Below are positions 18,617-43,165 of a DNA stretch of 44,857 bases, one piece after another; the first letter of the stretch is position 1; each line of letters begins with the position of its first letter. The notes beneath the pieces were generated by a model. It was not told where the DNA came from. It did not search any database and saw only the letters and a program-made list of their open reading frames with translations. Source of the DNA: a virus; UHGV virus genome UHGV-0186980; one strand, given 5' to 3'. Made by a program: the position numbers and the translations under genes.

Positions 18617-18795
18617 TATTTCTCCCCGCTATTTTTTGCGCTGGCGGATACCGAGCGCGCGATTAAAAAAGACCAAAGCAGACAGAGTATTCCGCCTGTG
18701 ATAAACCCCGCTGCAGGTAATAAAAGCCAGGCTCCGGTAGAAACCAATAAAGCCCCGGCAAGGCCAATAATGAAACTCAGAATTGTGATTAGCAC
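18616..18795 (-). CDS. Possible small membrane protein (59 aa, GTG start), translationally coupled between terminase and portal
   Basis: GTG overlapping terminase 3' end; product VLITILSFIIGLAGALLVSTGAWLLLPAAGFITGGILCLLWSFLIARSVSASAKNSGEK; TAATG overlap with portal start; below track length threshold. Confidence 0.3.
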   Translation of the reverse strand: MLITILSFIIGLAGALLVSTGAWLLLPAAGFITGGILCLLWSFLIARSVSASAKNSGEK

Positions 18796-20510
18796 GCTAC
18801 GTCTTCCTCATCATAGATAGATTTGATGACTGCGCTGTTCAACATGGCGCGCCCTATCCCCATCATTAAACCAACCGCACCATCAATCTTGTTTTGTTTC
18901 CCCTCCTTTGTCGGACGGACAATATCGTCGCTGCCCGGCAAATACCGACCTACAACGTTCTGGATGCACCAGTTCATGATGGGATTTCCGTCATGATGGA
19001 ATCGCCCCGACGCCAGTGCAGCTTCAATCTCTCTCATGGGGTCGCTCATATGGGTGAAGTTCTGTCTGATTTCGACGGGTTCCAGTCCCTCTTCCTCAAG
19101 CAGATGGCGCAAGGAAGTGGCACCATAAGGATCGATAGGACACTGGGCGATTTTCACGTTCTGACGTAACTGCAGGATGGATTCGAAAATCAGCCGATAA
19201 TCTACTTCTGCGCCCTCAGTTGGAATTAAAACGCCCTGTCCCACAAAGGACTGATAACGTTCAGAGGTATGCTTAAGCTTCGGGTCGACAGAATAGATGG
19301 TGTCTTCAGGCACCCAGAACATAGGGCCTACGCAGTAGAAATGGGTAATACCTTCTATATCGCGACGAAAAACAGGAATAACGGCGTTAAGATCGACCTT
19401 TGACGCTAGATCTATTCCCAGCCAGCATTCCTCATCGGCAAAATCAGACAATTTCAGACTCTTGTCAGCAGCAGCCATCCATTTCTGTAAATCGTAAAAG
19501 ACTGTTTTTGCGCTAACCCAACGATTAAAATGCTTGGTCAGGATCTTGTTGGTCTGACTGGGGTTCGATATCGCCAGTAACTGTTTTGCGCGAAGAAAGT
19601 GCTCTTTTACCGATATCCCATAATTGGGATTGGCTTTAATGAGCGCTTCCGGCTGAGTCCAGTCATCATCATCATCCAGACCATAGATGATGCCGAAAAT
19701 GCCCTCATTCTCTTCCCCATTGCGGGTTTTGCGCAGGATCTCCACCACCTGTTCCCGCTTCTCATAGCACGGCGATGTAATGTCATAACCGGCTGTCGTG
19801 ATGATGAGCGTAATGGGTTGCTCGCGAGCCCCCATCCCTGTCGTCATCGTGGTATACAGGGCATCGGTAATATGTTCGTGGTATTCGTCGATAATGGCGC
19901 ATGACGGCGAATCACCGTCACCGGGATCGCCAATCACGGGTGCAAATATGGAGCCATCCGGGCGAGTCATTTTTTTTGCCCAGGGCTTTATAGAAAATTT
20001 CTGCCGCAATGCGGGCAGCTTTTTCACCATCAACAACGCCGGAGCAAACACTTTCCAGGCCTGCTTTTCGGTCGTGGCGCCGCAGTACACTTCCGCACCA
20101 TGTTCACCGTCAGCGCAGAACATATAATTGCCAACGGCAGCGGCAATTGCTGATTTGCCGTTCTTTCTAGGAACTTCGATATAGATCTCAGTGAACCGCC
20201 GCAGGCCACTTTTTTTATTTACCCAGCCAAACGGAACACCCAGGGCAAACTTTTGCCAGGGTTCAAATTCTATCCTGAGTTTTCGGCGGGCCCATTCCCC
20301 TGCGGTATGTGGCATTTTTTGTGCAAAACGAAGAAATCGCTCTGCCTTATTTTTATCGAACCGGTAAGGCCAGTTCGGATCCTTCGCGCGTTCCAGGTCA
20401 TCAAGATGTCGCTTGCAGGCAAGAATAGTTAACTGACATGCCAGAATCTTCCCGCCAACGATATCCCGTGCATACTGGTTCGCCGCATTGACGTTCGGAT
20501 ATGTGGCCAT
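18789..20510 (-). CDS. Terminase large subunit
   Basis: 573 aa; ATPase N-terminal region and nuclease C-terminal region; upstream of portal. Confidence 0.85.
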   Translation of the reverse strand: MATYPNVNAANQYARDIVGGKILACQLTILACKRHLDDLERAKDPNWPYRFDKNKAERFLRFAQKMPHTAGEWARRKLRIEFEPWQKFALGVPFGWVNKKSGLRRFTEIYIEVPRKNGKSAIAAAVGNYMFCADGEHGAEVYCGATTEKQAWKVFAPALLMVKKLPALRQKFSIKPWAKKMTRPDGSIFAPVIGDPGDGDSPSCAIIDEYHEHITDALYTTMTTGMGAREQPITLIITTAGYDITSPCYEKREQVVEILRKTRNGEENEGIFGIIYGLDDDDDWTQPEALIKANPNYGISVKEHFLRAKQLLAISNPSQTNKILTKHFNRWVSAKTVFYDLQKWMAAADKSLKLSDFADEECWLGIDLASKVDLNAVIPVFRRDIEGITHFYCVGPMFWVPEDTIYSVDPKLKHTSERYQSFVGQGVLIPTEGAEVDYRLIFESILQLRQNVKIAQCPIDPYGATSLRHLLEEEGLEPVEIRQNFTHMSDPMREIEAALASGRFHHDGNPIMNWCIQNVVGRYLPGSDDIVRPTKEGKQNKIDGAVGLMMGIGRAMLNSAVIKSIYDEEDVAC

Positions 20511-20944
20511 CAGTCAAACTCATCAAATTCATTCCCGTCATCGTCCTGATCATTTTTGCCGCTGGTCATTCGGATACGGCTGAGCGGATCTAACCCCAGT
20601 AGCGAGCCCAGACGGGCTATCTGGGAAACAGAGTCATTTCTGACGTTTACGGCAGGATGTTTTTTTAACCCTCCCATTTCGCTTTCAGTTGTCAGCCCGT
20701 TAGCCAGTAATTTTTCGGCTTCGAGCATCAGATGGAAGGCGTTGCAGTAAGCCAGAAGTAAAGGGGCATCTTCAAGCTCAAAAACGCCTCTTTCGATCAG
20801 GATTTTACTTTGAGTCTTCCATATTCTTATAGCCGCCTCCCCCATCAACTCAGCCGGGGGCGCGATTCGGGTCAGTTTACTTTTTTGCCCGGTGGGTAAA
20901 ACGGGTTTTCTTCCCCCTCCAGACGATCTAATACCAGCAGCCAT
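20510..20944 (-). CDS. Terminase small subunit (P27-like)
   Basis: 144 aa, acidic C-terminus, overlaps TerL start (ATGA). Confidence 0.6.
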   Translation of the reverse strand: MAAGIRSSGGGRKPVLPTGQKSKLTRIAPPAELMGEAAIRIWKTQSKILIERGVFELEDAPLLLAYCNAFHLMLEAEKLLANGLTTESEMGGLKKHPAVNVRNDSVSQIARLGSLLGLDPLSRIRMTSGKNDQDDDGNEFDEFD

Positions 20945-21081
20945 AACTCCTCTTTTGATAGGTGAAACCTGCCGGAAAAAAGATCCTTATTTCTGGCGTG
21001 TAAAAATGTCCTTCAAGCGGCAGTCCCAAAGCGCGAAAGGGGTCAGGGATTTGATCCCCCCTACCCCTGGCGGCAGCTGCC

Positions 21082-21294
21082 TCAGTCGAGGTGGAAGTCG
21101 TCATTCAGGTTGCGCCGACGACCGCTGCTCGCGTTGTGTGGGCAGGCACTCGAGTTATGCCCGGACTGACCGCAATAACTGCAGCGCAAATTGGCGCGAC
21201 GTGAGGAACCACCCCACGTTTTCGGGCAGTTCGCGTATGTATGAAGCTGTGAACCGCAATAAGTACAGCGGGTATAACCCATCATGCCCTCCAT
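21082..21294 (-). CDS. Small protein with two CX2CX4HX4C zinc-knuckle motifs
   Basis: RCTYCGSQLHTYANCP and RCSYCGQSGHNSSACP. Confidence 0.5.
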   Translation of the reverse strand: MEGMMGYTRCTYCGSQLHTYANCPKTWGGSSRRANLRCSYCGQSGHNSSACPHNASSGRRRNLNDDFHLD

Positions 21295-21312
21295 TCATTA
21301 AGAATGCCGTTA

Positions 21313-21753
21313 TCAGGTTTCAGTTGGTGCCGGTGCAACGCCACCATCAGCCTGCAGCACACTTTCCGGCAAACGCTCAATCAGCGGGGCATTCTCAAAT
21401 ACTTTGAGACCGTACTGGCCAACCCAAGTGCTTTCCTGCCCAACGCTGCCAGAGATGAAGTCCATCACTTCTGCCAACAGCTCTTTAACCAGAGCCTCCG
21501 TACGCGTCCGCCAGTGGCCTTCAATGGCGACCAGGAGAGGATCTGAACCGTTGGCAATACTTTGCTTGCCTACCGAGTAGGTTTTCTTTTTCGCCTTATC
21601 GGTCACACACTGCAGCTGTGTCATCAGGGCCAGAACAGCAATCGGAGTTGTATCGCGGACTTCGATAGTCATCGTGGCCAGCTTGTTACCCGATTCAGCA
21701 TCAGTGGATGATGCGTAGTACATTGAAATGGTTAAATCATCACGACTGAACAT
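21313..21753 (-). CDS. Hypothetical protein (146 aa)
   Basis: ORF between HNH and terminase small subunit; no motif recognised. Confidence 0.45.
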   Translation of the reverse strand: MFSRDDLTISMYYASSTDAESGNKLATMTIEVRDTTPIAVLALMTQLQCVTDKAKKKTYSVGKQSIANGSDPLLVAIEGHWRTRTEALVKELLAEVMDFISGSVGQESTWVGQYGLKVFENAPLIERLPESVLQADGGVAPAPTET

Positions 21754-21755
21754 GA

Positions 21756-22052
21756 TTAATGGCTCCGGTTACGGTTGCGATTTTTATTGCGGTTACGCTG
21801 ATGGCGCGGTGCGGTTTCGGCTGGCAGGTGCTCGCCTTCGAACGCTTGCGCTGGCTCTTGCGGTTGCGGTTGCGGTTGAGCGGGAACCAGTCCCTCGGGA
21901 ATTTCACCACCTACCTCAAACTTGAGATGCGGTTCTTTCCCCAAGAAATGGCTGAAGTTCAGGCCCGATAGTCCTGCATTGAGCATCGAGATCCCCTCGA
22001 CATCAACGGTAACGAGTTGGCCATCAACGTATTCAATTTTTAAATTCTTCAT
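21756..22052 (-). CDS. Hypothetical protein with Pro/Gln-rich and basic NRNKNRNRNR tail (start refined to ATG 22052)
   Basis: MKNLKIEYVDGQLVTV...; ATGA overlap with HNH stop. Confidence 0.45.
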   Translation of the reverse strand: MKNLKIEYVDGQLVTVDVEGISMLNAGLSGLNFSHFLGKEPHLKFEVGGEIPEGLVPAQPQPQPQEPAQAFEGEHLPAETAPRHQRNRNKNRNRNRSH

Positions 22053-22411
22053 CGTGTTCTCTCTGTTGCGGTTTTCGTTCTGTGGCACGGCCAGCACAAC
22101 GATTCCAGATTGTAATTGTCATCAGTACCGCCGTGGGCTTTAGGAATGATGTGGTCGACGCTGGTAGCTTTTGTGGCGATACCGTGGCGTCGGCAGTTCT
22201 GGCAAAGGTATTTGTCGCGCACGAGTATCTGGGCACGAATGATTTCCCAGGAACGACCGTATCCGCGTTGCTGTCGGGTTTTTCCGGTCTGATAGTTACG
22301 CCAGCCATCGCCAGTGTGTTGCTGCCGATGGATCTCGCAGTATCTAGTGGCGTCATTCGTCACTGCCGCGCATCCTCTGTGCCGGCAAGGTCGTTTAGCT
22401 CGTGGTGGCAT
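22049..22411 (-). CDS. HNH endonuclease (terminase-associated)
   Basis: VDHIIPKAHGG...NLESLCWPCH HNH motif; start refined to MPPRAKRP (track start is upstream junk). Confidence 0.8.
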   Translation of the reverse strand: MPPRAKRPCRHRGCAAVTNDATRYCEIHRQQHTGDGWRNYQTGKTRQQRGYGRSWEIIRAQILVRDKYLCQNCRRHGIATKATSVDHIIPKAHGGTDDNYNLESLCWPCHRTKTATERTR

Positions 22412-22556
22412 ACACATCCTCAAGCATGAATTTGGAGAGAGTAAAAGCGGCACTGTCGATGGGGAACTCTGAAACTGGCAACGATGCGAATGACAAATCG
22501 TCATACGAAATCACCACCAGCTTCCCTCCTACGTATTCAATTTTTAAGCTCTTCAT
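22395..22556 (-). pseudogene. Short paralogous copy (53 codons) of the N-terminus of the 21756..22052 gene, upstream of HNH
   Basis: MKSLKIEYVGGKLVVI... vs MKNLKIEYVDGQLVTV...; 24-nt near-identical DNA at 22533-22556 and 22029-22052. Confidence 0.35.
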
Positions 22557-22730
22557 CATGTGGCATCACGAATACAAAAAGCCCCGCAGATGCGAGGCTA
22601 CTGGTTATACATCAGGGTGTTATTGATAGAGAGCAGCGTGTAAGGTTATCGCTCAGCCGCCTGTGGTGGGACACAGGTAGATATTGTAATTGCAGAGGGA
22701 TAGCTGATTAGCTCTGCTTAAGGAATAGAA

Positions 22731-22931
22731 ATGATTAAAAAGAATATGCACCTTCAAATGGAATCAAATGCCCAAACAATCGACGAATTGAACAAAGAAA
22801 TTGGGCAACTGAAATGTGTCGTTGGTTTCTTAATGACTCAATTACCACCGCAATCTAGGCAGGCTGTCATCAATAATCTTGAGGAGTTTGGACTTGATGA
22901 GTCAGTTAAGGAATTTACTCAGTTCCTTTGA
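22731..22931 (+). CDS. Hypothetical 66-aa protein
   Basis: ATG with AAGGAA RBS; AT-rich accessory region. Confidence 0.4.
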   Translation: MIKKNMHLQMESNAQTIDELNKEIGQLKCVVGFLMTQLPPQSRQAVINNLEEFGLDESVKEFTQFL

Positions 22932-23315
22932 ACAAGGCTTGACCTAATAAATTAATGTACCAGCCTTGAGAATTTTTGGGTTGTGTCCCAGGCGAAGTAG
23001 TGGACTCGCTTCCTTCGCCTGAAACATTTTTTGGGTTTGAAGTTTTGACGTTCAACGTTTTCAAGTTATTCCTCCTTATTACGATCCCCGCTAAGTGATA
23101 CAGACAGATTTATCCCTTGGTAGGGATAGATGTTCTCACCGATTCGTAAATCCGCTCACAGGTCATTCCTGCTTTGTAGCGTTCGTCTGCAATTGCAGCA
23201 TACGCCACGGGGATTAACTACTTATGTCTAACAATCGACAGTCTCATTGTTACAGCCATTAAAAAAACCACCCATGTGGAGTGCCCCCCGAAATGTGGCC
23301 TATCTGATCGCTATG

Positions 23316-23445
23316 AAAAAGGCCGCAAAAGAGATGCGGCCTTTTGTCATGCACAGTTATCGATTAAATAAACTCTCAGGAGCCATCCGGGAGAGCATCA
23401 CTTAAACGGGTAACTGACCTCCGACAGACTGGTGTTGGGACGGAG
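23316..23445. repeat. Imperfect direct repeat copy 1 (~130 bp) containing terminator-like hairpin GGCCGCAAAAGAGATGCGGCC and CTCTCAGGAGCCATCCGGGAGAG
   Basis: Blocks shared with 24610-24740: AAAAAGGCCGCAAAA..ATGCG.CCTTT, CTCTCAGGAGCCA.CCGGGAGAG, TAACTGACC. Confidence 0.55.
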
Positions 23446-23790
23446 GTGCAATGAGAGTAGTGTGTTTCATTTTTTTTCATACCAGCAAACACAAAATAAT
23501 GGCAGTTCTTCCTGTTAATCGATAACTGCTATTCAATTAGTCTGGCCAGACGGATGATTATCCTGCCAGGAGTTATCACACTCACACAATGAAAATCTTT
23601 AAAAAAAATCCTTAGCCGGTTCACTCGCCTTCGAACAGGTGCAATGACCTTGCTCTGACGAAATTAGCTTTAATCGTTCGTTGCCATCTTCCGTACAAAC
23701 AAAATAGTCACAAAAAAATAAAGGTTAAAAAGTGAGCTATTTACTGTCCTGTGGTGTATGGTTAGCAATCACTCACGAGGATAAAAACCA

Positions 23791-23961
23791 TGGCGATGCT
23801 CAAAGACAAGATACGTACACTCAGACCTGTAAAAAGCACCTGTCCTCACTGCTCTCGCCAGTCAACACATAGCCTGTCGAGAATAAAAAACGATATAACA
23901 TTGATCTGCCCATACTGCGGAAATATTTTCCTCCCCTCAGAAAGTAAACCTGTTAAGTAAC
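23791..23961 (+). CDS. Small zinc-ribbon protein (CX2C-x18-CX2C), 56 aa
   Basis: MAMLKDKIRTLRPVKSTCPHCSRQ...LICPYCGNIF; GAGGA RBS 8 nt upstream. Confidence 0.45.
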
Positions 23962-24203
23962 TGATCGAATACTTTACTGAAGCTGAAGTCCACTCTCAGG
24001 CTTCAGTAAACGAAACGACTTAGCAATCAGCGTCAGGACGCGCTACAGCCTGTATCCAGCAGACCGCAAAAATAACGGCTCACTCCTTTCAGGCGATTCA
24101 TTCGCTCAAAATCACCAGGAGTTAACATGCTTCTTCTCCTGCTTCTGATAATCAAAAAACCGCAAATGCGAGGTTTATTTGGTAAATATTGGTTTACCTG
24201 AAC

Positions 24204-24473
24204 CTAGGAATAATAGGCTGCGAAATGCTCCTCAACCTGCGCCCTTGTGTCTGCGCTCTCGTTTAATGTCAATGAGTCATAACCCTTAATGTGAAAAACA
24301 GGTTCATATGCATAAACAGTAATCAATGCGTAAATTGCATTGTCAGTACCAGAAAAAATCTCATATTTCACACGCGACAGGCGCTTATGTTCATTAACTA
24401 ACATGTATGTTTCGATAAGCTTATGAGTAACCACGTTTTTTCCTTCATGACAAAAAAATCCCCTTTTAACCAT
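24204..24473 (-). CDS. Hypothetical 89-aa protein
   Basis: ORF in AT-rich cassette; no motif recognised. Confidence 0.4.
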   Translation of the reverse strand: MVKRGFFCHEGKNVVTHKLIETYMLVNEHKRLSRVKYEIFSGTDNAIYALITVYAYEPVFHIKGYDSLTLNESADTRAQVEEHFAAYYS

Positions 24474-24609
24474 ACGCGTTAGGAGCTAAGAATTGAAATT
24501 ATTAGCATTATCGAAGCCACTCGGCAGAATGGTCTCTGTGATGCATTTGCATTTGCATTTATCTTTGCCATGCGTACAAGCAAAATGGTGGCCTTACGGA
24601 TGCCTGTTA

Positions 24610-24740
24610 CGCACAATAAAAAAGGCCGCAAAAAAATGCGACCTTTGGTTAGTACCAGTTAGAAAACTAAAATCTCTCAGGAGCCACCCGGGAGAGGCTT
24701 TTCTGTTTTTTAACTGACCACTGCCGTTTCGGTGTTGACT
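24610..24740. repeat. Imperfect direct repeat copy 2 (~130 bp)
   Basis: See copy 1 at 23316-23445. Confidence 0.55.
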
Positions 24741-24918
24741 GGCAGTGATAACGTGATGATAGCTTCATTTAAGTTATCGATATCATTTAAATATCTAAAG
24801 AACTATTTAAACCAATAATTCTCAACTCGCCGGAACATTCAACCATAGAAACAGGTTTCTATGCTGGTCTTTTGATGGTAAGCATCAATTCACCACAACC
24901 AGCTTAGTTGCTAATAAA

Positions 24919-25131
24919 TTATTCGGGGGTACCTTCAACGTTGAACCATAGATCTAAATGTTTAATGTAGCGCTGGATGGACACACAAATAACCACTCCA
25001 TCTTTAAGGTTAACAGACTTAATAACACATCCTTTCGGTGCAAAATACTCCCCATCATAATGGGGGCGAATGGAATGCTCGTCTCCGTAACGATAACCGT
25101 GCGGAAGTTGAGGGAGTGAATTTCTTGTCAT
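24919..25131 (-). CDS. Hypothetical 70-aa protein downstream of spanin genes
   Basis: ORF directly downstream of lysis cassette; no motif recognised. Confidence 0.4.
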   Translation of the reverse strand: MTRNSLPQLPHGYRYGDEHSIRPHYDGEYFAPKGCVIKSVNLKDGVVICVSIQRYIKHLDLWFNVEGTPE

Positions 25132-25298
25132 GGGCAGCTTCTTAGATAAAAGGAATTTGAAAATCCATAGTGCATTAGCAACCTTGACTTAGATACCAAC
25201 TTTTCATTGTTTACTGCTCTAATATCTCGTTTTCAGATTTTTTGTTCATACGATGATTTAAATATCAATACCTTAAGCGTGCGACATTTATATCTGAT

Positions 25299-25529
25299 TT
25301 ATCTTGCTCCCTTCTCTGTAAGCTGCGGGCAGTTGGCCTGCACGGATTTGTTGTACGCCAAGATGTCGCGCTTCGTCTGCTTATCCAGCACGTCAATATC
25401 GCGGTCAGTGAGATAGATAATTTTCGCCCACAGGCACCCTGTATCAACGACCACCGGGGCGGGTGAATTGCTCGCGCAGCTCACGATCAACATCGTCATC
25501 AGGCATATGGCTAACAGTCTGCTGTACAT
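25299..25529 (-). CDS. o-spanin (Rz1-like outer-membrane lipoprotein), overlapping the 3' end of the i-spanin gene
   Basis: MYSRLLAICLMTMLIVSCAS lipobox; alternate frame overlapping Rz-like gene. Confidence 0.6.
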   Translation of the reverse strand: MYSRLLAICLMTMLIVSCASNSPAPVVVDTGCLWAKIIYLTDRDIDVLDKQTKRDILAYNKSVQANCPQLTEKGAR

Positions 25530-37036: not shown

Positions 37037-37732
37037 ATGAACATCGGAAAGCGAATCAGAGAACTACGCCTTGCAAAGGGCTTAAAAATAAACGACCTGG
37101 CTGATGCTTTGGGCATTGATGGCGCCAATATTTCTCGCATGGAAACAGGTAAACAGAAATCATTTACCGAACAATCCCTTAATCTTTATGCAAAGGCATT
37201 AGGCGTAGAAGTTGCTGAGCTCTTTACACCTCCCCAAAATGAAATTACTGTATATAATAACAGTATAAAACATCCAGTTCATGGAGAGGGTAGCTCGGTG
37301 TTTAGAGTGGAAATGCTTGATGTCAGTGCGAGCGCTGGTGGTGGATTTATTCAGGGCAGTGATGTTATTGATGTCATAAGGTCTATTGAATACAACAACG
37401 ACCAAGCCATGACTTTATTCGGTGGCAGAACACCAGACTCAGTGAAGGTCATTAACGTTCGGGGCGACAGCATGGCTGACACTATTCAGCCTGGAGATTT
37501 GATTTTCGTCGATGTTTCAGTCAATAGCTTTGATGGCGATGGCATCTACGTCTTTGGTTTCGATGGCAAAATATATGTTAAGCGCCTGCAAATGATACCA
37601 GATAAAATGCTCGTGATTTCTGATAATCCAAAATACAGAGAATGGGAAATCGATCGGGCTAATGAATACCGCTTTTGCGTTTATGGCAAAGTAATGATCA
37701 GCCAGTCACAAGCCTTCAAGCGCCACGGCTAA
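37037..37732 (+). CDS. cI: CI repressor (HTH + S24 LexA-like autopeptidase domain)
   Basis: N-terminal HTH; C-terminal GDSM Ser and VKR Lys motifs. Confidence 0.85.
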   Translation: MNIGKRIRELRLAKGLKINDLADALGIDGANISRMETGKQKSFTEQSLNLYAKALGVEVAELFTPPQNEITVYNNSIKHPVHGEGSSVFRVEMLDVSASAGGGFIQGSDVIDVIRSIEYNNDQAMTLFGGRTPDSVKVINVRGDSMADTIQPGDLIFVDVSVNSFDGDGIYVFGFDGKIYVKRLQMIPDKMLVISDNPKYREWEIDRANEYRFCVYGKVMISQSQAFKRHG

Positions 37733-41983: not shown

Positions 41984-43165
41984 ATGGCAGCAAGGCCAAG
42001 AAAAAGGGAATACCGCCATCTACCTGATTATCTAATATTTGATAAAGATCGCGGCGTTTATAAATTCACCTTAATTACAGGGAAGAAAAAGAACATTGGG
42101 AAAGATCGGGCTATAGCCATCGCTATTGCGCGCGAATACAACCTCAGAATGCGGCAGGCAAATGCTCCGTCAGTTGAATTGCTTATCCGTGATTCTGGCG
42201 GCGTGTCGGGTGAAGCTAAACCTTTTGCCGAGCATGTTGATCACATCATGGCGCGTGCGATTGAAAATGAACGTCCGTCGCAAAATACGCTTGATGACTG
42301 GAACAACGACGCACTAAGGGTGAAGGAATTCTTTAGCAACATACCAGCTTGCGATATTGAGCTGGAGCATGTGAACGCCTACATAAAGCATTACCACTCA
42401 GATTCATCAGCGAACGTACAAAACCGGAAGGTCAGCTTCCTTAAAAAATTGTTCTCGTATGCGGTCGATGAATCATTGATGTTTGATAATCCTGCTACAC
42501 GCAAAAAAATGCGAAGAACCGAAGAGAAGAAACGCCAGCGTCTTTCACTCGATAACTTTAAAGCCATTCGTCGGGCCGCCGAACCCTGGTTACGCACCGC
42601 GATGGATTTAGCATTACAGACGACGCACGCTCGCCTTGAAGTGTCTAGGATTCGGTATTCAATTCGTGAACCTAAGAACGGTATTTGTGGTTGTGTATGG
42701 CTCGAACAGCCAGAAGATGGCATATATGGAACGCTTTACATCCATCGTCAAAAGGTACAAAAGAAGGAAGCATCGCACGTTGCGATTCCAATTGGGGATG
42801 AGCTAAAGCGCATAATTGATGAAAGTAGGGATAACGTAGCTAGTCCGTTTGTTGTTCATCGGATTCCGGAGCGACAGGTTAAACGCAGTAAAGAAGTTTC
42901 ACACCCAACTCAAGTTGCGCCTGACTATCTTAGTCGCTCGTTCTCCTCGTTACGCGATGAGCTAGGGCTTTGTGATCATCTTGCGATGGACGAACGCCCT
43001 ACATTTCACGAGATCAGAGCCCTTGCAGCACATTTGTTTAATAGCCAAGGAATCGATCCTCAAGGCAGAATGGCTCACAGTGATGCAAAATCAACAAAGA
43101 TTTATACTCAAAACCACATTGATTGGATCGTCGTTCCACACGGGGAAATTAAATACAATGCATAA
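41984..43165 (+). CDS. int: Tyrosine integrase
   Basis: 393 aa; C-terminal HEIRALAAHL...AHSDAKSTKIYTQNH catalytic region. Confidence 0.9.
   Translation: MAARPRKREYRHLPDYLIFDKDRGVYKFTLITGKKKNIGKDRAIAIAIAREYNLRMRQANAPSVELLIRDSGGVSGEAKPFAEHVDHIMARAIENERPSQNTLDDWNNDALRVKEFFSNIPACDIELEHVNAYIKHYHSDSSANVQNRKVSFLKKLFSYAVDESLMFDNPATRKKMRRTEEKKRQRLSLDNFKAIRRAAEPWLRTAMDLALQTTHARLEVSRIRYSIREPKNGICGCVWLEQPEDGIYGTLYIHRQKVQKKEASHVAIPIGDELKRIIDESRDNVASPFVVHRIPERQVKRSKEVSHPTQVAPDYLSRSFSSLRDELGLCDHLAMDERPTFHEIRALAAHLFNSQGIDPQGRMAHSDAKSTKIYTQNHIDWIVVPHGEIKYNA

What the first reader, a model, noticed from the sequence alone, without database searches (positions are those of the whole stretch)
21082..21294. 70-aa protein with two retroviral-type CCHC zinc knuckles next to the terminase genes
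Two exact CX2CX4HX4C motifs occur 28 residues apart in an otherwise Ser/Arg-rich small protein directly upstream of terS. Such knuckles bind single-stranded nucleic acid and are uncommon in phage packaging regions. It may help cos recognition or HNH/terminase function, or be a regulator.
Basis: seen in the sequence. Interest (0 to 1): 0.45.

Follow-up and report, generated by a model that had tools for sequence, protein, structure and literature searches.

The report
Small phage double zinc-knuckle protein
A real, strongly conserved 66-residue prophage protein with two retrovirus-style CCHC zinc knuckles sits just before the DNA-packaging (cos/terminase) genes, but its relatives occur all over other phage genomes, so it looks like a free-standing accessory protein of unknown role rather than part of the packaging machine.

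Summary
ORF 21082-21294 (-) carries two exact CX2CX4HX4C motifs 28 residues apart. They are the only two in the window (0.04 expected by chance). The likely start is the ATG at 21282, giving 66 aa, as in its 87%-identical homologue phiKO2 Gp64. The gene is under strong purifying selection (dN/dS 0.056).

It belongs to a large uncurated family: 535 clusters at 90% identity, all named "hypothetical". Members are 58-75 aa and built from two 28-residue "extended knuckles" (CxYCGSxxHxxxxCPKTWxGSxxRxxLR) plus a conserved C-terminal [FY]-[IVL]-x-D tail. A family profile matches solved CCHC knuckles (AIR2, TUT4, retroviral NC, Lin28; E down to 1e-5). The window protein alone is below Pfam's zf-CCHC cut-off.

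The packaging idea is not supported:
- Only 8 of 234 phage records with a homologous TerL carry the gene.
- One related prophage has lost all but its last ~17 codons while keeping cos, terS and HNH.
- Distant members lie between terL and portal, in tail modules, or in early-gene arrays.
- No neighbour family is shared by more than 3 of 35 subfamilies.

Most likely it is a stand-alone, zinc-stabilised accessory protein that binds single-stranded nucleic acid or a protein partner. Its function is untested. Moderate interest.

The parts
21082..21282 (-). Probable CDS of the double zinc-knuckle protein (66 aa, 7.3 kDa, pI 9.1), homologue of phiKO2 Gp64
   Evidence: ORF list and translation. 87% identical to phiKO2 Gp64. 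dN/dS 0.056 over 877 pairs. Start position from homologue lengths and the phiKO2 annotation.
21283..21294 (-).
   Evidence: Sequence read directly. Alignment to phiKO2.
21226..21267 (-). Knuckle 1: CTYCGSQLHTYANC (CX2CX4HX4C)
   Evidence: The Cys and His columns are invariant in 117 sequences.
21184..21225 (-). Conserved linker PKTWGGSSRRANLR. It is the extension of knuckle 1 and is predicted helical at residues 23-31.
   Evidence: P20 and T22 are invariant; G25 and R29 are conserved in at least 90% of sequences; W23 in at least 90% of the 28-sequence set. AF2 model.
21142..21183 (-). Knuckle 2: CSYCGQSGHNSSAC (CX2CX4HX4C)
   Evidence: An 18-nt direct repeat 84 nt (28 codons) apart reflects the internal duplication.
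21085..21102 (-). C-terminal tail DDFHLD. The family-wide motif is [DN]-x-[FY]-[IVLH]-x-D at or near the C-terminus.
   Evidence: Family sequences. The terminal Asp is conserved in at least 90% of sequences. In the AF2 model it forms beta-bridges.
21013..21081 (-). Right-hand cos flank: 69 bp between the stop codon and the inferred cos cut, with a G-rich imperfect palindrome at 21038-21068
   Evidence: Alignment to the phiKO2 virion ends. Coordinates. Inverted repeat I4. 55 bp are conserved in E. coli prophages.
20945..21012 (-). Left-hand cos flank and terS leader
   Evidence: Alignment to the phiKO2 left end.
20510..20944 (-). terS (P27/Terminase_4 family). Context, not part of the element.
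   Evidence: Pfam 3.7e-17, phrog_83 6.4e-34.
18789..20510 (-). terL. Context.
   Evidence: TerL_ATPase and TerL_nuclease, phrog_9 1.6e-174.
21313..21753 (-). phiKO2 gp62-like gene (phrog_2473, unknown function), upstream neighbour. Context.
22049..22411 (-). HNH endonuclease of the HK97-type packaging module (the ORF is callable up to 22504; the likely start is near 22411). Context.
   Evidence: Pfam HNH 2.3e-14, phrog_144 6.3e-40 aligned from residue 27. Sequence.

Best explanation
Shown: this is a genuine protein-coding gene, homologous to phiKO2 gp64. It encodes a 66-aa basic protein made of two tandem 28-residue 'extended' CCHC zinc knuckles plus a conserved C-terminal [FY]-[IVL]-x-D tail. 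It is the last gene before cos. No promoter-like site was found across the 20400-23000 region that holds it, HNH and terS.

Shown: it belongs to a large, uncurated family of 58-75-aa proteins, found mostly on viral contigs and prophages, with no conserved gene neighbour across phage lineages.

Inferred from gene order and the lack of a local promoter: the gene is co-transcribed with the late genes, from HNH through cos into terS and terL.

Inferred: each knuckle binds one Zn2+. The two knuckles, the helical PKTWGGSxxR linker and the C-terminal strand pack into one small zinc-stabilised module. This module works on its own as an accessory factor, not as a subunit of the HNH-TerS-TerL machine.

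Inferred: it most likely acts by binding a single-stranded nucleic acid, RNA or ssDNA, through its conserved Tyr/Trp and Arg residues, as a small chaperone or regulator. In this prophage it simply occupies the variable cargo slot between HNH and cos.
For: Real gene:
- Both motifs lie in one ORF, against 0.04 expected by chance.
- dN/dS is 0.056 with dS 0.74, so selection acts on the protein, not on the cos DNA.
- Homologues fall into 535 clusters at 90% identity. Among the best 150 representatives at 50% identity, 107 are short single-stretch proteins.

Knuckle identity:
- The family profile hits AIR2, TUT4, RSV/HIV NC and Lin28 at E 1e-5 to 1e-2.
- Some members pass the Pfam cut-offs of AIR2-like_ZnK4 (29.4 against 27 bits) or the Lin-28A second knuckle (28.2 against 27 bits).
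- The Cys and His columns are invariant. Y8, Y36, R29, R57 and D66 are conserved in at least 90% of 117 sequences, and W23 in at least 90% of the 28-sequence set.
- With the deep alignment the AF2 model reaches pLDDT 75 and pTM 0.55, with a linker helix.
- The top Foldseek hit is a 42-residue chain of the TUT4/Lin28A/pre-let-7 complex, rmsd 1.1 A over 21 residues, though not significant.

Autonomy from packaging:
- Only 8 of 234 TerL-homologous phage records carry it.
- MK416021 is a natural deletion.
- An E. coli prophage has a different gene in the same slot.
- Contexts include terL-ZnK-portal, a tail module next to the tape-measure gene, and early-gene arrays.
- Neighbour censuses found no recurrent partner.

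Late-operon placement: no promoter-like site in 20400-23000, and a terminator-like hairpin only upstream of HNH.

Basic charge: pI 9.1.
Against: - No biochemical evidence exists for zinc or nucleic-acid binding.
- The residue that stacks on bases in retroviral NC and Lin28 knuckles, the aromatic at Cys1+1 (my own knowledge), is Thr or Ser here. The conserved aromatic is at Cys1+2.
- The best-matching Pfam model is AIR2 ZnK4. Its following 'CPSIW' segment is, from my memory of the TRAMP literature, a protein-protein contact. That favours a protein partner.
- In 80 of 80 close relatives the gene sits between HNH and cos/terminase, and Mu-like members sit between terL and portal. A non-essential packaging-related role in some lineages is therefore not excluded.
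- The window protein is below every curated family threshold.
- The structural matches are not significant.
Confidence: 0.45

Rival explanations
1. Protein-binding inhibitor or adaptor. The two zinc knuckles are only a rigid scaffold. The conserved CPKTW extension and the C-terminal [FY]-[IVL]-x-D tail dock onto a host or phage protein, for example as an anti-defence or host-takeover factor.
For: - The family behaves like mobile accessory cargo. Many members lie in arrays of small early ORFs next to methylases, primase, Acb1, KilA-N or Rha.
- The best Pfam similarity is to AIR2-like ZnK4, including the CP..W extension.
- The canonical base-stacking position is not aromatic.
- The short C-terminal motif is conserved across all subfamilies.
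Against: - There is no hit to any known defence or anti-defence model (PADLOC).
- No partner gene is identifiable.
- The protein is basic with conserved Arg and aromatic residues, which fits nucleic-acid binding equally well.
- No literature was found.
Confidence: 0.3
2. Non-essential packaging helper. In the enterobacterial clade the protein assists the HNH/TerS/TerL complex at cos, for example by binding the single-stranded cohesive end or the G-rich cos flank.
For: - It is always the last gene before cos and downstream of HNH in 80 of 80 close relatives. HNH is the immediate neighbour in 67 of 83 loci.
- Mu-like members lie between terL and portal.
- Other members abut terL, portal or a MuF-like head gene.
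- The 3' end of the gene plus the cos flank is retained in the MK416021 deletion variant.
Against: - It is absent from 226 of 234 phage records with a homologous TerL. These include the closest ones and named phage records such as PY54, SfV, ST64B and phiE125.
- The same cos flank is used without it.
- Family members occur in tail and early modules.
- dS of 0.74 shows no DNA-level constraint across the gene.
Confidence: 0.12
3. Small zinc-finger gene regulator. It would activate or repress transcription or translation, in the manner of P2 Ogr or Mu Com, here tuning late gene expression.
For: - The size, zinc-finger nature and late-operon position resemble Ogr and Com (my own knowledge).
- The protein is basic.
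- Its position varies between early and late modules.
Against: - The Pfam scan at E<=1 listed no Ogr/Delta family for this protein.
- The Cys/His spacing differs from those C4 fingers (my own knowledge).
- No conserved target gene lies next to it.
Confidence: 0.1
4. Degenerate HNH/His-Me finger remnant. The CxxC...H...P..GG...N..CxxC...H layout superficially resembles an HNH core.
For: The order of residues resembles the neighbouring HNH gene's CxxC...DH...P...GG...N...CxxCH (my reading).
Against: - No HNH family appears even at E<=1.
- The protein is an internal tandem duplication of a complete CCHC unit.
- All profile hits are to CCHC knuckles.
Confidence: 0.02

Closest known systems
Klebsiella phage phiKO2 Gp64 (YP_006644.1), an uncharacterised hypothetical protein
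   Same: 87% identical, 66 aa, and the same position as the last gene before cos on the virion right end. Both lie downstream of HNH, gp61 and gp62 homologues.
   Different: phiKO2 is a linear-plasmid (telomere) prophage with an extra gene, gp63, between gp62 and gp64. The window is an integrated prophage with an integrase and a CI-like repressor. Its TerL is only 57.5% identical.
Retroviral-type CCHC zinc knuckles (Pfam zf-CCHC PF00098: retroviral nucleocapsid, Lin28, CNBP, TUT4/7)
   Same: Exact CX2CX4HX4C spacing, Gly after the second Cys, and a tandem arrangement in a small basic protein. The family profile matches these chains. The top Foldseek hits are a chain of the TUT4/Lin28A complex and HIV NC.
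   Different: The window protein is below the Pfam cut-off. The aromatic residue is at Cys1+2, not Cys1+1. Each knuckle carries a conserved 14-residue extension (PKTWxGSxxRxxLR). There is a conserved C-terminal tail. The protein is predicted to be compact rather than beads on a string. It is encoded by tailed phages.
Yeast Air2p/Air1p zinc knuckle 4 with its following I-W-R-x-Y linker (Pfam AIR2-like_ZnK4 PF21759; PDB 3NYB, 2LLI)
   Same: This is the best single match: QCTLCKSKKHSKERCPSIW against RCTYCGSxxHTxxNCPKTW. Both have Thr at Cys1+1 and CP..W after the knuckle.
   Different: Air2p is a five-knuckle eukaryotic TRAMP subunit, and its linker contacts Trf4 (my own knowledge). No Trf4-like partner exists here. 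The similarity is short and near threshold.
Phage Mu Com and P2 Ogr, small phage zinc-finger regulators
   Same: They are 60-70-aa phage zinc-binding proteins acting in trans on late gene expression (my own knowledge). They are functional analogies only.
   Different: They are C4-type fingers with different spacing. The Pfam scan at E<=1 listed no Ogr/Delta family for this protein.

Membership tests
CCHC zinc knuckle (Pfam zf-CCHC PF00098 and relatives) | C-X2-C-X4-H-X4-C spacing | tested here: met
   Two exact copies. The Cys and His columns are invariant in 117 homologues.
CCHC zinc knuckle (Pfam zf-CCHC PF00098 and relatives) | Score at or above the curated Pfam gathering threshold | tested here: not met
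   The window protein scores 16.6 bits against 20.8 for PF00098, and 13.5 against 27 for PF21759. Some family members pass PF21759 (29.4) or PF21890 (28.2).
CCHC zinc knuckle (Pfam zf-CCHC PF00098 and relatives) | Profile-level sequence homology to experimentally solved knuckles | tested here: met
   Profile A2 against PDB: AIR2 1.3e-5, TUT4 2.9e-5, RSV NC 1.9e-4, then HIV NC and Lin28 at about 4e-3. It also hits eukaryotic multi-knuckle proteins.
CCHC zinc knuckle (Pfam zf-CCHC PF00098 and relatives) | Aromatic residue at Cys1+1 that stacks on an unpaired base (NC, Lin28; my own knowledge) | tested here: not met
   Position Cys1+1 is Thr or Ser in at least 90% of members. The conserved aromatic (Tyr or Phe) is at Cys1+2.
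CCHC zinc knuckle (Pfam zf-CCHC PF00098 and relatives) | Knuckle 3-D fold | tested here: inconclusive
CCHC zinc knuckle (Pfam zf-CCHC PF00098 and relatives) | Binds one Zn2+ per knuckle and single-stranded nucleic acid | not testable with these tools
   Needs purified protein, with metal analysis and EMSA or anisotropy.
HNH-terminase DNA packaging machine (HK97 gp74 type) | Encoded next to HNH, terS and terL at cos | tested here: met
   Window gene order. The same order holds in 80 of 80 close relatives.
HNH-terminase DNA packaging machine (HK97 gp74 type) | Co-occurs with the machine across phages that share it | tested here: not met
   It is present in 8 of 234 phage records with a TerL homologue at E<=1e-100. 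It is deleted in MK416021 and replaced by another gene in E. coli C012.
HNH-terminase DNA packaging machine (HK97 gp74 type) | Family members keep the packaging-gene neighbourhood | tested here: not met
   Members occur in tail, early and replication contexts. No neighbour family is shared by more than 3 of 35 subfamilies.
HNH / His-Me finger nuclease | Match to an HNH profile; a single beta-beta-alpha metal motif | tested here: not met
   No HNH family appears at E<=1. The protein is a tandem duplication of complete CCHC units.
phiKO2 Gp64 homologue group | High identity over the full length and the same genomic position | tested here: met
   87% identity over 66-70 aa, and the last gene before cos.
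Known anti-phage defence proteins (PADLOC-DB) | Match to a defence-system model | tested here: not met
   The window protein and eight of nine other family members gave no hit at E<=0.1. One member gave a single 0.02 hit.

The most novel reading that the evidence does not exclude
The family would be the first functional class of retroviral-type CCHC zinc-knuckle proteins in bacterial viruses. It would act as a nucleocapsid-like single-strand nucleic-acid binder or chaperone that phages carry as mobile cargo. One possible use is to sequester or remodel an RNA or ssDNA species, such as a host defence RNA or msDNA, a phage transcript, or the cohesive end. Its 28-residue 'extended knuckle' would be a distinct prokaryotic-virus branch of the zinc-knuckle superfamily.
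Probability: 0.18. Interest if true: 0.65.

Novelty: new variant of a known kind. Interest (0 to 1): 0.35.

Why it matters
CCHC zinc knuckles are thought of as a eukaryotic and retroelement module. Here they form a large phage family under strong purifying selection that no curated library names. It has 535 clusters at 90% identity, is rare in cultured phages (10 of 50,697 records), is common in viral metagenomes, and sits on many phiKO2-like Klebsiella plasmid prophages.

Knowing its ligand would add a new type of small phage accessory factor. It would also show whether phage knuckles bind nucleic acids as retroviral ones do.

For annotation, the result warns against reading function from the position next to the terminase. 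The HNH-cos interval is a cargo slot.

Tried and rejected
- Curated libraries. Pfam, PHROGs, NCBIfam and PADLOC scans of the protein and of nine diverse relatives gave nothing above threshold for the window protein.
- PF27939. This family is precomputed on some relatives but is not in the local Pfam copy, so I could not identify it.
- Structure prediction. AF2 with 28 sequences was poor (pLDDT 56). With 117 sequences it was usable (pLDDT 75).
- Literature. Four searches for phage or prophage zinc knuckles found nothing relevant. A search for phiKO2 plus gp64 also found nothing relevant. The phiKO2 genome paper is not held.
- Conserved partner gene. Pfam censuses of 76 upstream and 80 downstream neighbours, and all-against-all clustering of 970 neighbours from 168 loci, found none.
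- Degenerate-HNH idea. Rejected, because there is no HNH hit and the protein is an internal CCHC duplication.
- cos DNA constraint. The idea that the ORF is conserved only as cos DNA is rejected by dN/dS 0.056 with dS 0.74.
- Genome-contig scans.
- Rfam. No RNA family was found in the window.

Full report
**1. The observation**

The minus-strand ORF 21082-21294 translates to MEGMMGYTRCTYCGSQLHTYANCPKTWGGSSRRANLRCSYCGQSGHNSSACPHNASSGRRRNLNDDFHLD. It holds two exact CX2CX4HX4C motifs, at 21267-21226 and 21183-21142, with first cysteines 28 residues apart.

A six-frame scan of the whole 44.9-kb window finds only these two motifs. Shuffled windows give 0.04 motifs on average, and none of 200 shuffles gave a double.

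The likely start is the fifth codon, ATG at 21282. A GGAGG at 21292-21288 lies 5 nt upstream of it. The phiKO2 annotation and nearly all homologues begin there, giving 66 aa, 7.3 kDa and pI 9.1.

**2. Genomic setting**

The window is an integrated lambdoid prophage with HK97-like structural genes:
- a lambda-type integrase at 41984-43165 and a CI-like repressor at 37037-37732;
- two DNA methylases and a GH108 endolysin;
- HNH, terS (Terminase_4), terL and portal;
- an S49 protease, an HK97-fold capsid protein and a tape-measure protein.

On the minus strand the local order is HNH, gp61-like, gp62-like (phrog_2473), the zinc-knuckle gene (ZnK below), a 137-nt gap, terS, then terL.

Aligning the gap to the two virion ends of phiKO2 places the cos cut at about 21012/21013. 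That is 69 bp after the stop codon. No promoter-like site occurs in 20400-23000, and the only minus-strand terminator-like hairpin lies upstream of HNH. The gene is therefore probably part of the late transcript that runs through cos.

**3. It is a real gene in a large family**

The protein is 87% identical to phiKO2 Gp64, the last gene before cos in that phage.

Fifty-nine distinct nucleotide versions from 79 sequences (78 related viral contigs plus the window) give a median dN/dS of 0.056 at mean dS 0.74. Selection therefore acts on the protein, not on cos DNA.

Family size:
- A single-sequence search found 40 clusters.
- A profile search found 535 clusters at 90% identity with E<=1e-5.
- An exhaustive HMM search of 1.84 billion representatives found 662 hits at E<=1e-3. 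Of the best 150, 107 are short proteins of 48-109 aa, mostly 58-75 aa.

Every source name is 'hypothetical' or an obvious automatic mislabel, such as RpoP or primosomal protein N'.

Distribution:
- Named hosts include Klebsiella, Salmonella, Enterobacter, Serratia, Citrobacter, Yersinia, Photorhabdus, Agrobacterium, Aurantimonas, Citreicella and Pseudooceanicola, plus Pseudomonas phage RSP.
- The family is rare in cultured phages, at 10 of 50,697 records.
- It occurs in at least 245-288 IMG/VR stretches per scan.
- It occurs on 183 PLSDB plasmids. Most are 50-55-kb Klebsiella plasmids of phiKO2 size, and the gene is usually unannotated there.

**4. Anatomy of the family**

The family consensus is MRCTYCGSxxHTxxNCPKTWGGSxxRxxLRCSYCGxxxHxxxACPKTxxGxAARAW....[FY][IVL]xD. 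It is a tandem duplication of a 28-residue unit, made of a 14-residue CCHC knuckle and a 14-residue extension (PKTWxGSxxRxxLR). In many members the two halves are about 60% identical. In the window, an 18-nt direct repeat 84 nt apart still marks the duplication.

Invariant or at least 90%-conserved positions are the eight metal ligands, Y8, G10, S11, P20, T22, G25, R29, Y36, G38, A46, P48, R57 and the C-terminal Asp. W23 is conserved in at least 90% of the 28-sequence set.

With 117 sequences AF2 gives pLDDT 75 and pTM 0.55. The linker forms a helix at residues 23-31, and beta-bridges involve the C-terminal residues. This suggests one compact module rather than two beads on a string.

**5. Is it a retroviral-type knuckle?**

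The window protein alone is sub-threshold for every curated model: zf-CCHC 16.6 against 20.8 bits, and no PHROG, NCBIfam or PADLOC family.

The family profile matches solved knuckles specifically. It hits AIR2 at 1.3e-5, TUT4 at 2.9e-5 and RSV NC at 1.9e-4, followed by HIV NC, Lin28 and Arc/Gag. Some members pass the AIR2-like_ZnK4 or Lin-28A knuckle thresholds. The profile also pulls in eukaryotic multi-knuckle proteins.

Differences from canonical knuckles:
- Thr or Ser, not an aromatic residue, at Cys1+1;
- a conserved aromatic at Cys1+2;
- the CPKTW extension, most like AIR2 ZnK4's CPSIW;
- the C-terminal tail.

**6. Does it belong to the packaging machine?**

Among close relatives (85-100% identity) the position is fixed. 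The gene lies between HNH and terminase in 80 of 80 loci. HNH is the immediate upstream gene in 67 of 83 loci, and the arrangement occurs with at least two different terS types.

The broader picture argues against a packaging role:
- Of 234 phage records with a TerL homologue at E<=1e-100, only 8 carry the gene, all in the phiKO2 group.
- The two records with the closest TerL (MK416021 at 88%, Salmonella phage F1055 at 83%) lack it. So do records such as PY54, phiP27, SfV, ST64B and phiE125.
- MK416021 keeps the same cos flank, terS, terL, HNH and gp61/62-like genes but has lost the knuckles. Only the last ~17 codons remain.
- An E. coli prophage with the same 55-bp cos flank has an opposite-strand 171-aa gene in the slot.

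Distant family members occupy other positions:
- between terL and a Mu-type portal;
- between the gene after the tape-measure gene (TMP_2) and the genes leading to an NlpC/P60 and J-like tail tip in an Agrobacterium prophage;
- next to terL, portal, MuF-like or tape-measure genes;
- in early regions with Dam or other methylases, primase, ligase and strings of small ORFs.

Pfam censuses of 76 upstream and 80 downstream neighbours show a scatter of structural, lysis, replication and accessory families. Clustering 970 neighbours of 168 loci found no family adjacent to more than 3 of 35 ZnK subfamilies. The gene behaves as single-gene cargo, and the HNH-cos interval is a variable cargo slot.

**7. 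Mechanism**

What is shown:
- the gene is real, conserved and under purifying selection;
- it has a tandem CCHC architecture;
- it lies in the late gene cluster with no local promoter-like site;
- it has no fixed partner gene across the family.

What is inferred:
- It binds two zinc ions.
- It folds into a compact module.
- It acts in trans.

I favour single-stranded nucleic-acid binding, as a chaperone or regulator, at about 0.45 including the 'stand-alone accessory' frame. The reasons are homology to nucleic-acid-binding knuckles, the conserved Tyr/Trp/Arg residues and the basic charge.

The rivals, in order:
- Protein-binding inhibitor or adaptor (about 0.3). It is favoured by the AIR2-ZnK4-like extension, the missing Cys1+1 aromatic, the conserved C-terminal peptide and the early-gene cargo contexts.
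- Non-essential packaging helper in this clade (about 0.12).
- Ogr/Com-like regulator (about 0.1).
- Degenerate HNH (about 0.02).

**8. Novelty and verdict**

The gene has been known as an unnamed hypothetical protein since phiKO2 was sequenced, and UniProt auto-labels some phage relatives as CCHC-type. No curated family, structure, function or paper was found.

I rate it a new variant of a known kind, namely an extended, tandem, phage-borne zinc knuckle. Interest is moderate at 0.35.

Noticed in passing
window 22500-25500: An AT-rich stretch (GC 0.40-0.45 against about 0.51 in the flanks) with sparse small ORFs on both strands lies between the endolysin and the HNH gene. It is probably a foreign cargo island in the late region.
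   Followed up: no
window 22395-22559 (-) and 21756-22052 (-): A 54-aa ORF upstream of HNH shares its first 22 residues (55% identity, E 6e-7) with the gp61-like gene downstream of HNH. The HNH gene therefore sits between a truncated and a full copy of one small gene, as if inserted there. The HNH start is probably near 22411, not 22504.
   Followed up: partly
loci L030, L062, L069, L019 and many others, first ~60 bp after the ZnK stop codon: Many relatives carry AT-rich repeats that resemble Fur boxes (for example AATGAGAATCATTATCATC) between the zinc-knuckle gene and the G-rich cos element. The window lacks them.
   Followed up: no
window 21013-21067; L178 2501-2555: A 55-bp cos-flanking segment is 91% identical in six E. 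coli chromosomes. In strain C012 it lies between a P27-family terS and an opposite-strand 171-aa gene followed by HNH, with no zinc-knuckle gene.
   Followed up: partly
L175 (Klebsiella phage ST846-OXA48phi9.1, MK416021) about 2050-2290: This is a natural deletion variant. Only the last ~17 codons of the zinc-knuckle gene (...RRRRSRNDDLHLD*) remain next to a conserved cos flank, terS, terL and HNH.
   Followed up: yes
proteins P0103, P0149, P0177, P0178, P0181: These proteins carry domains typical of bacteria. They have five N-terminal CCHC knuckles at a regular 22-28-residue period, fused to bacterial SH3, YARHG, SPOR or Lcl_C domains. All five reach at least 20.2 bits on Pfam zf-CCHC, against a cut-off of 20.8.
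   Followed up: partly
window 27739-28815, 30070-31128 and 31125-33098 (-): The early region carries an N6/N4 DNA methylase, a 657-aa protein with a C5 cytosine methylase domain, and a DUF968 protein.
   Followed up: no
PLSDB plasmids: 183 plasmid records, 172 of them Klebsiella and mostly 50-55 kb and non-mobilisable (phiKO2 size), encode the protein at 80-97% identity. In most listed rows no annotated gene lies under the match.
   Followed up: no
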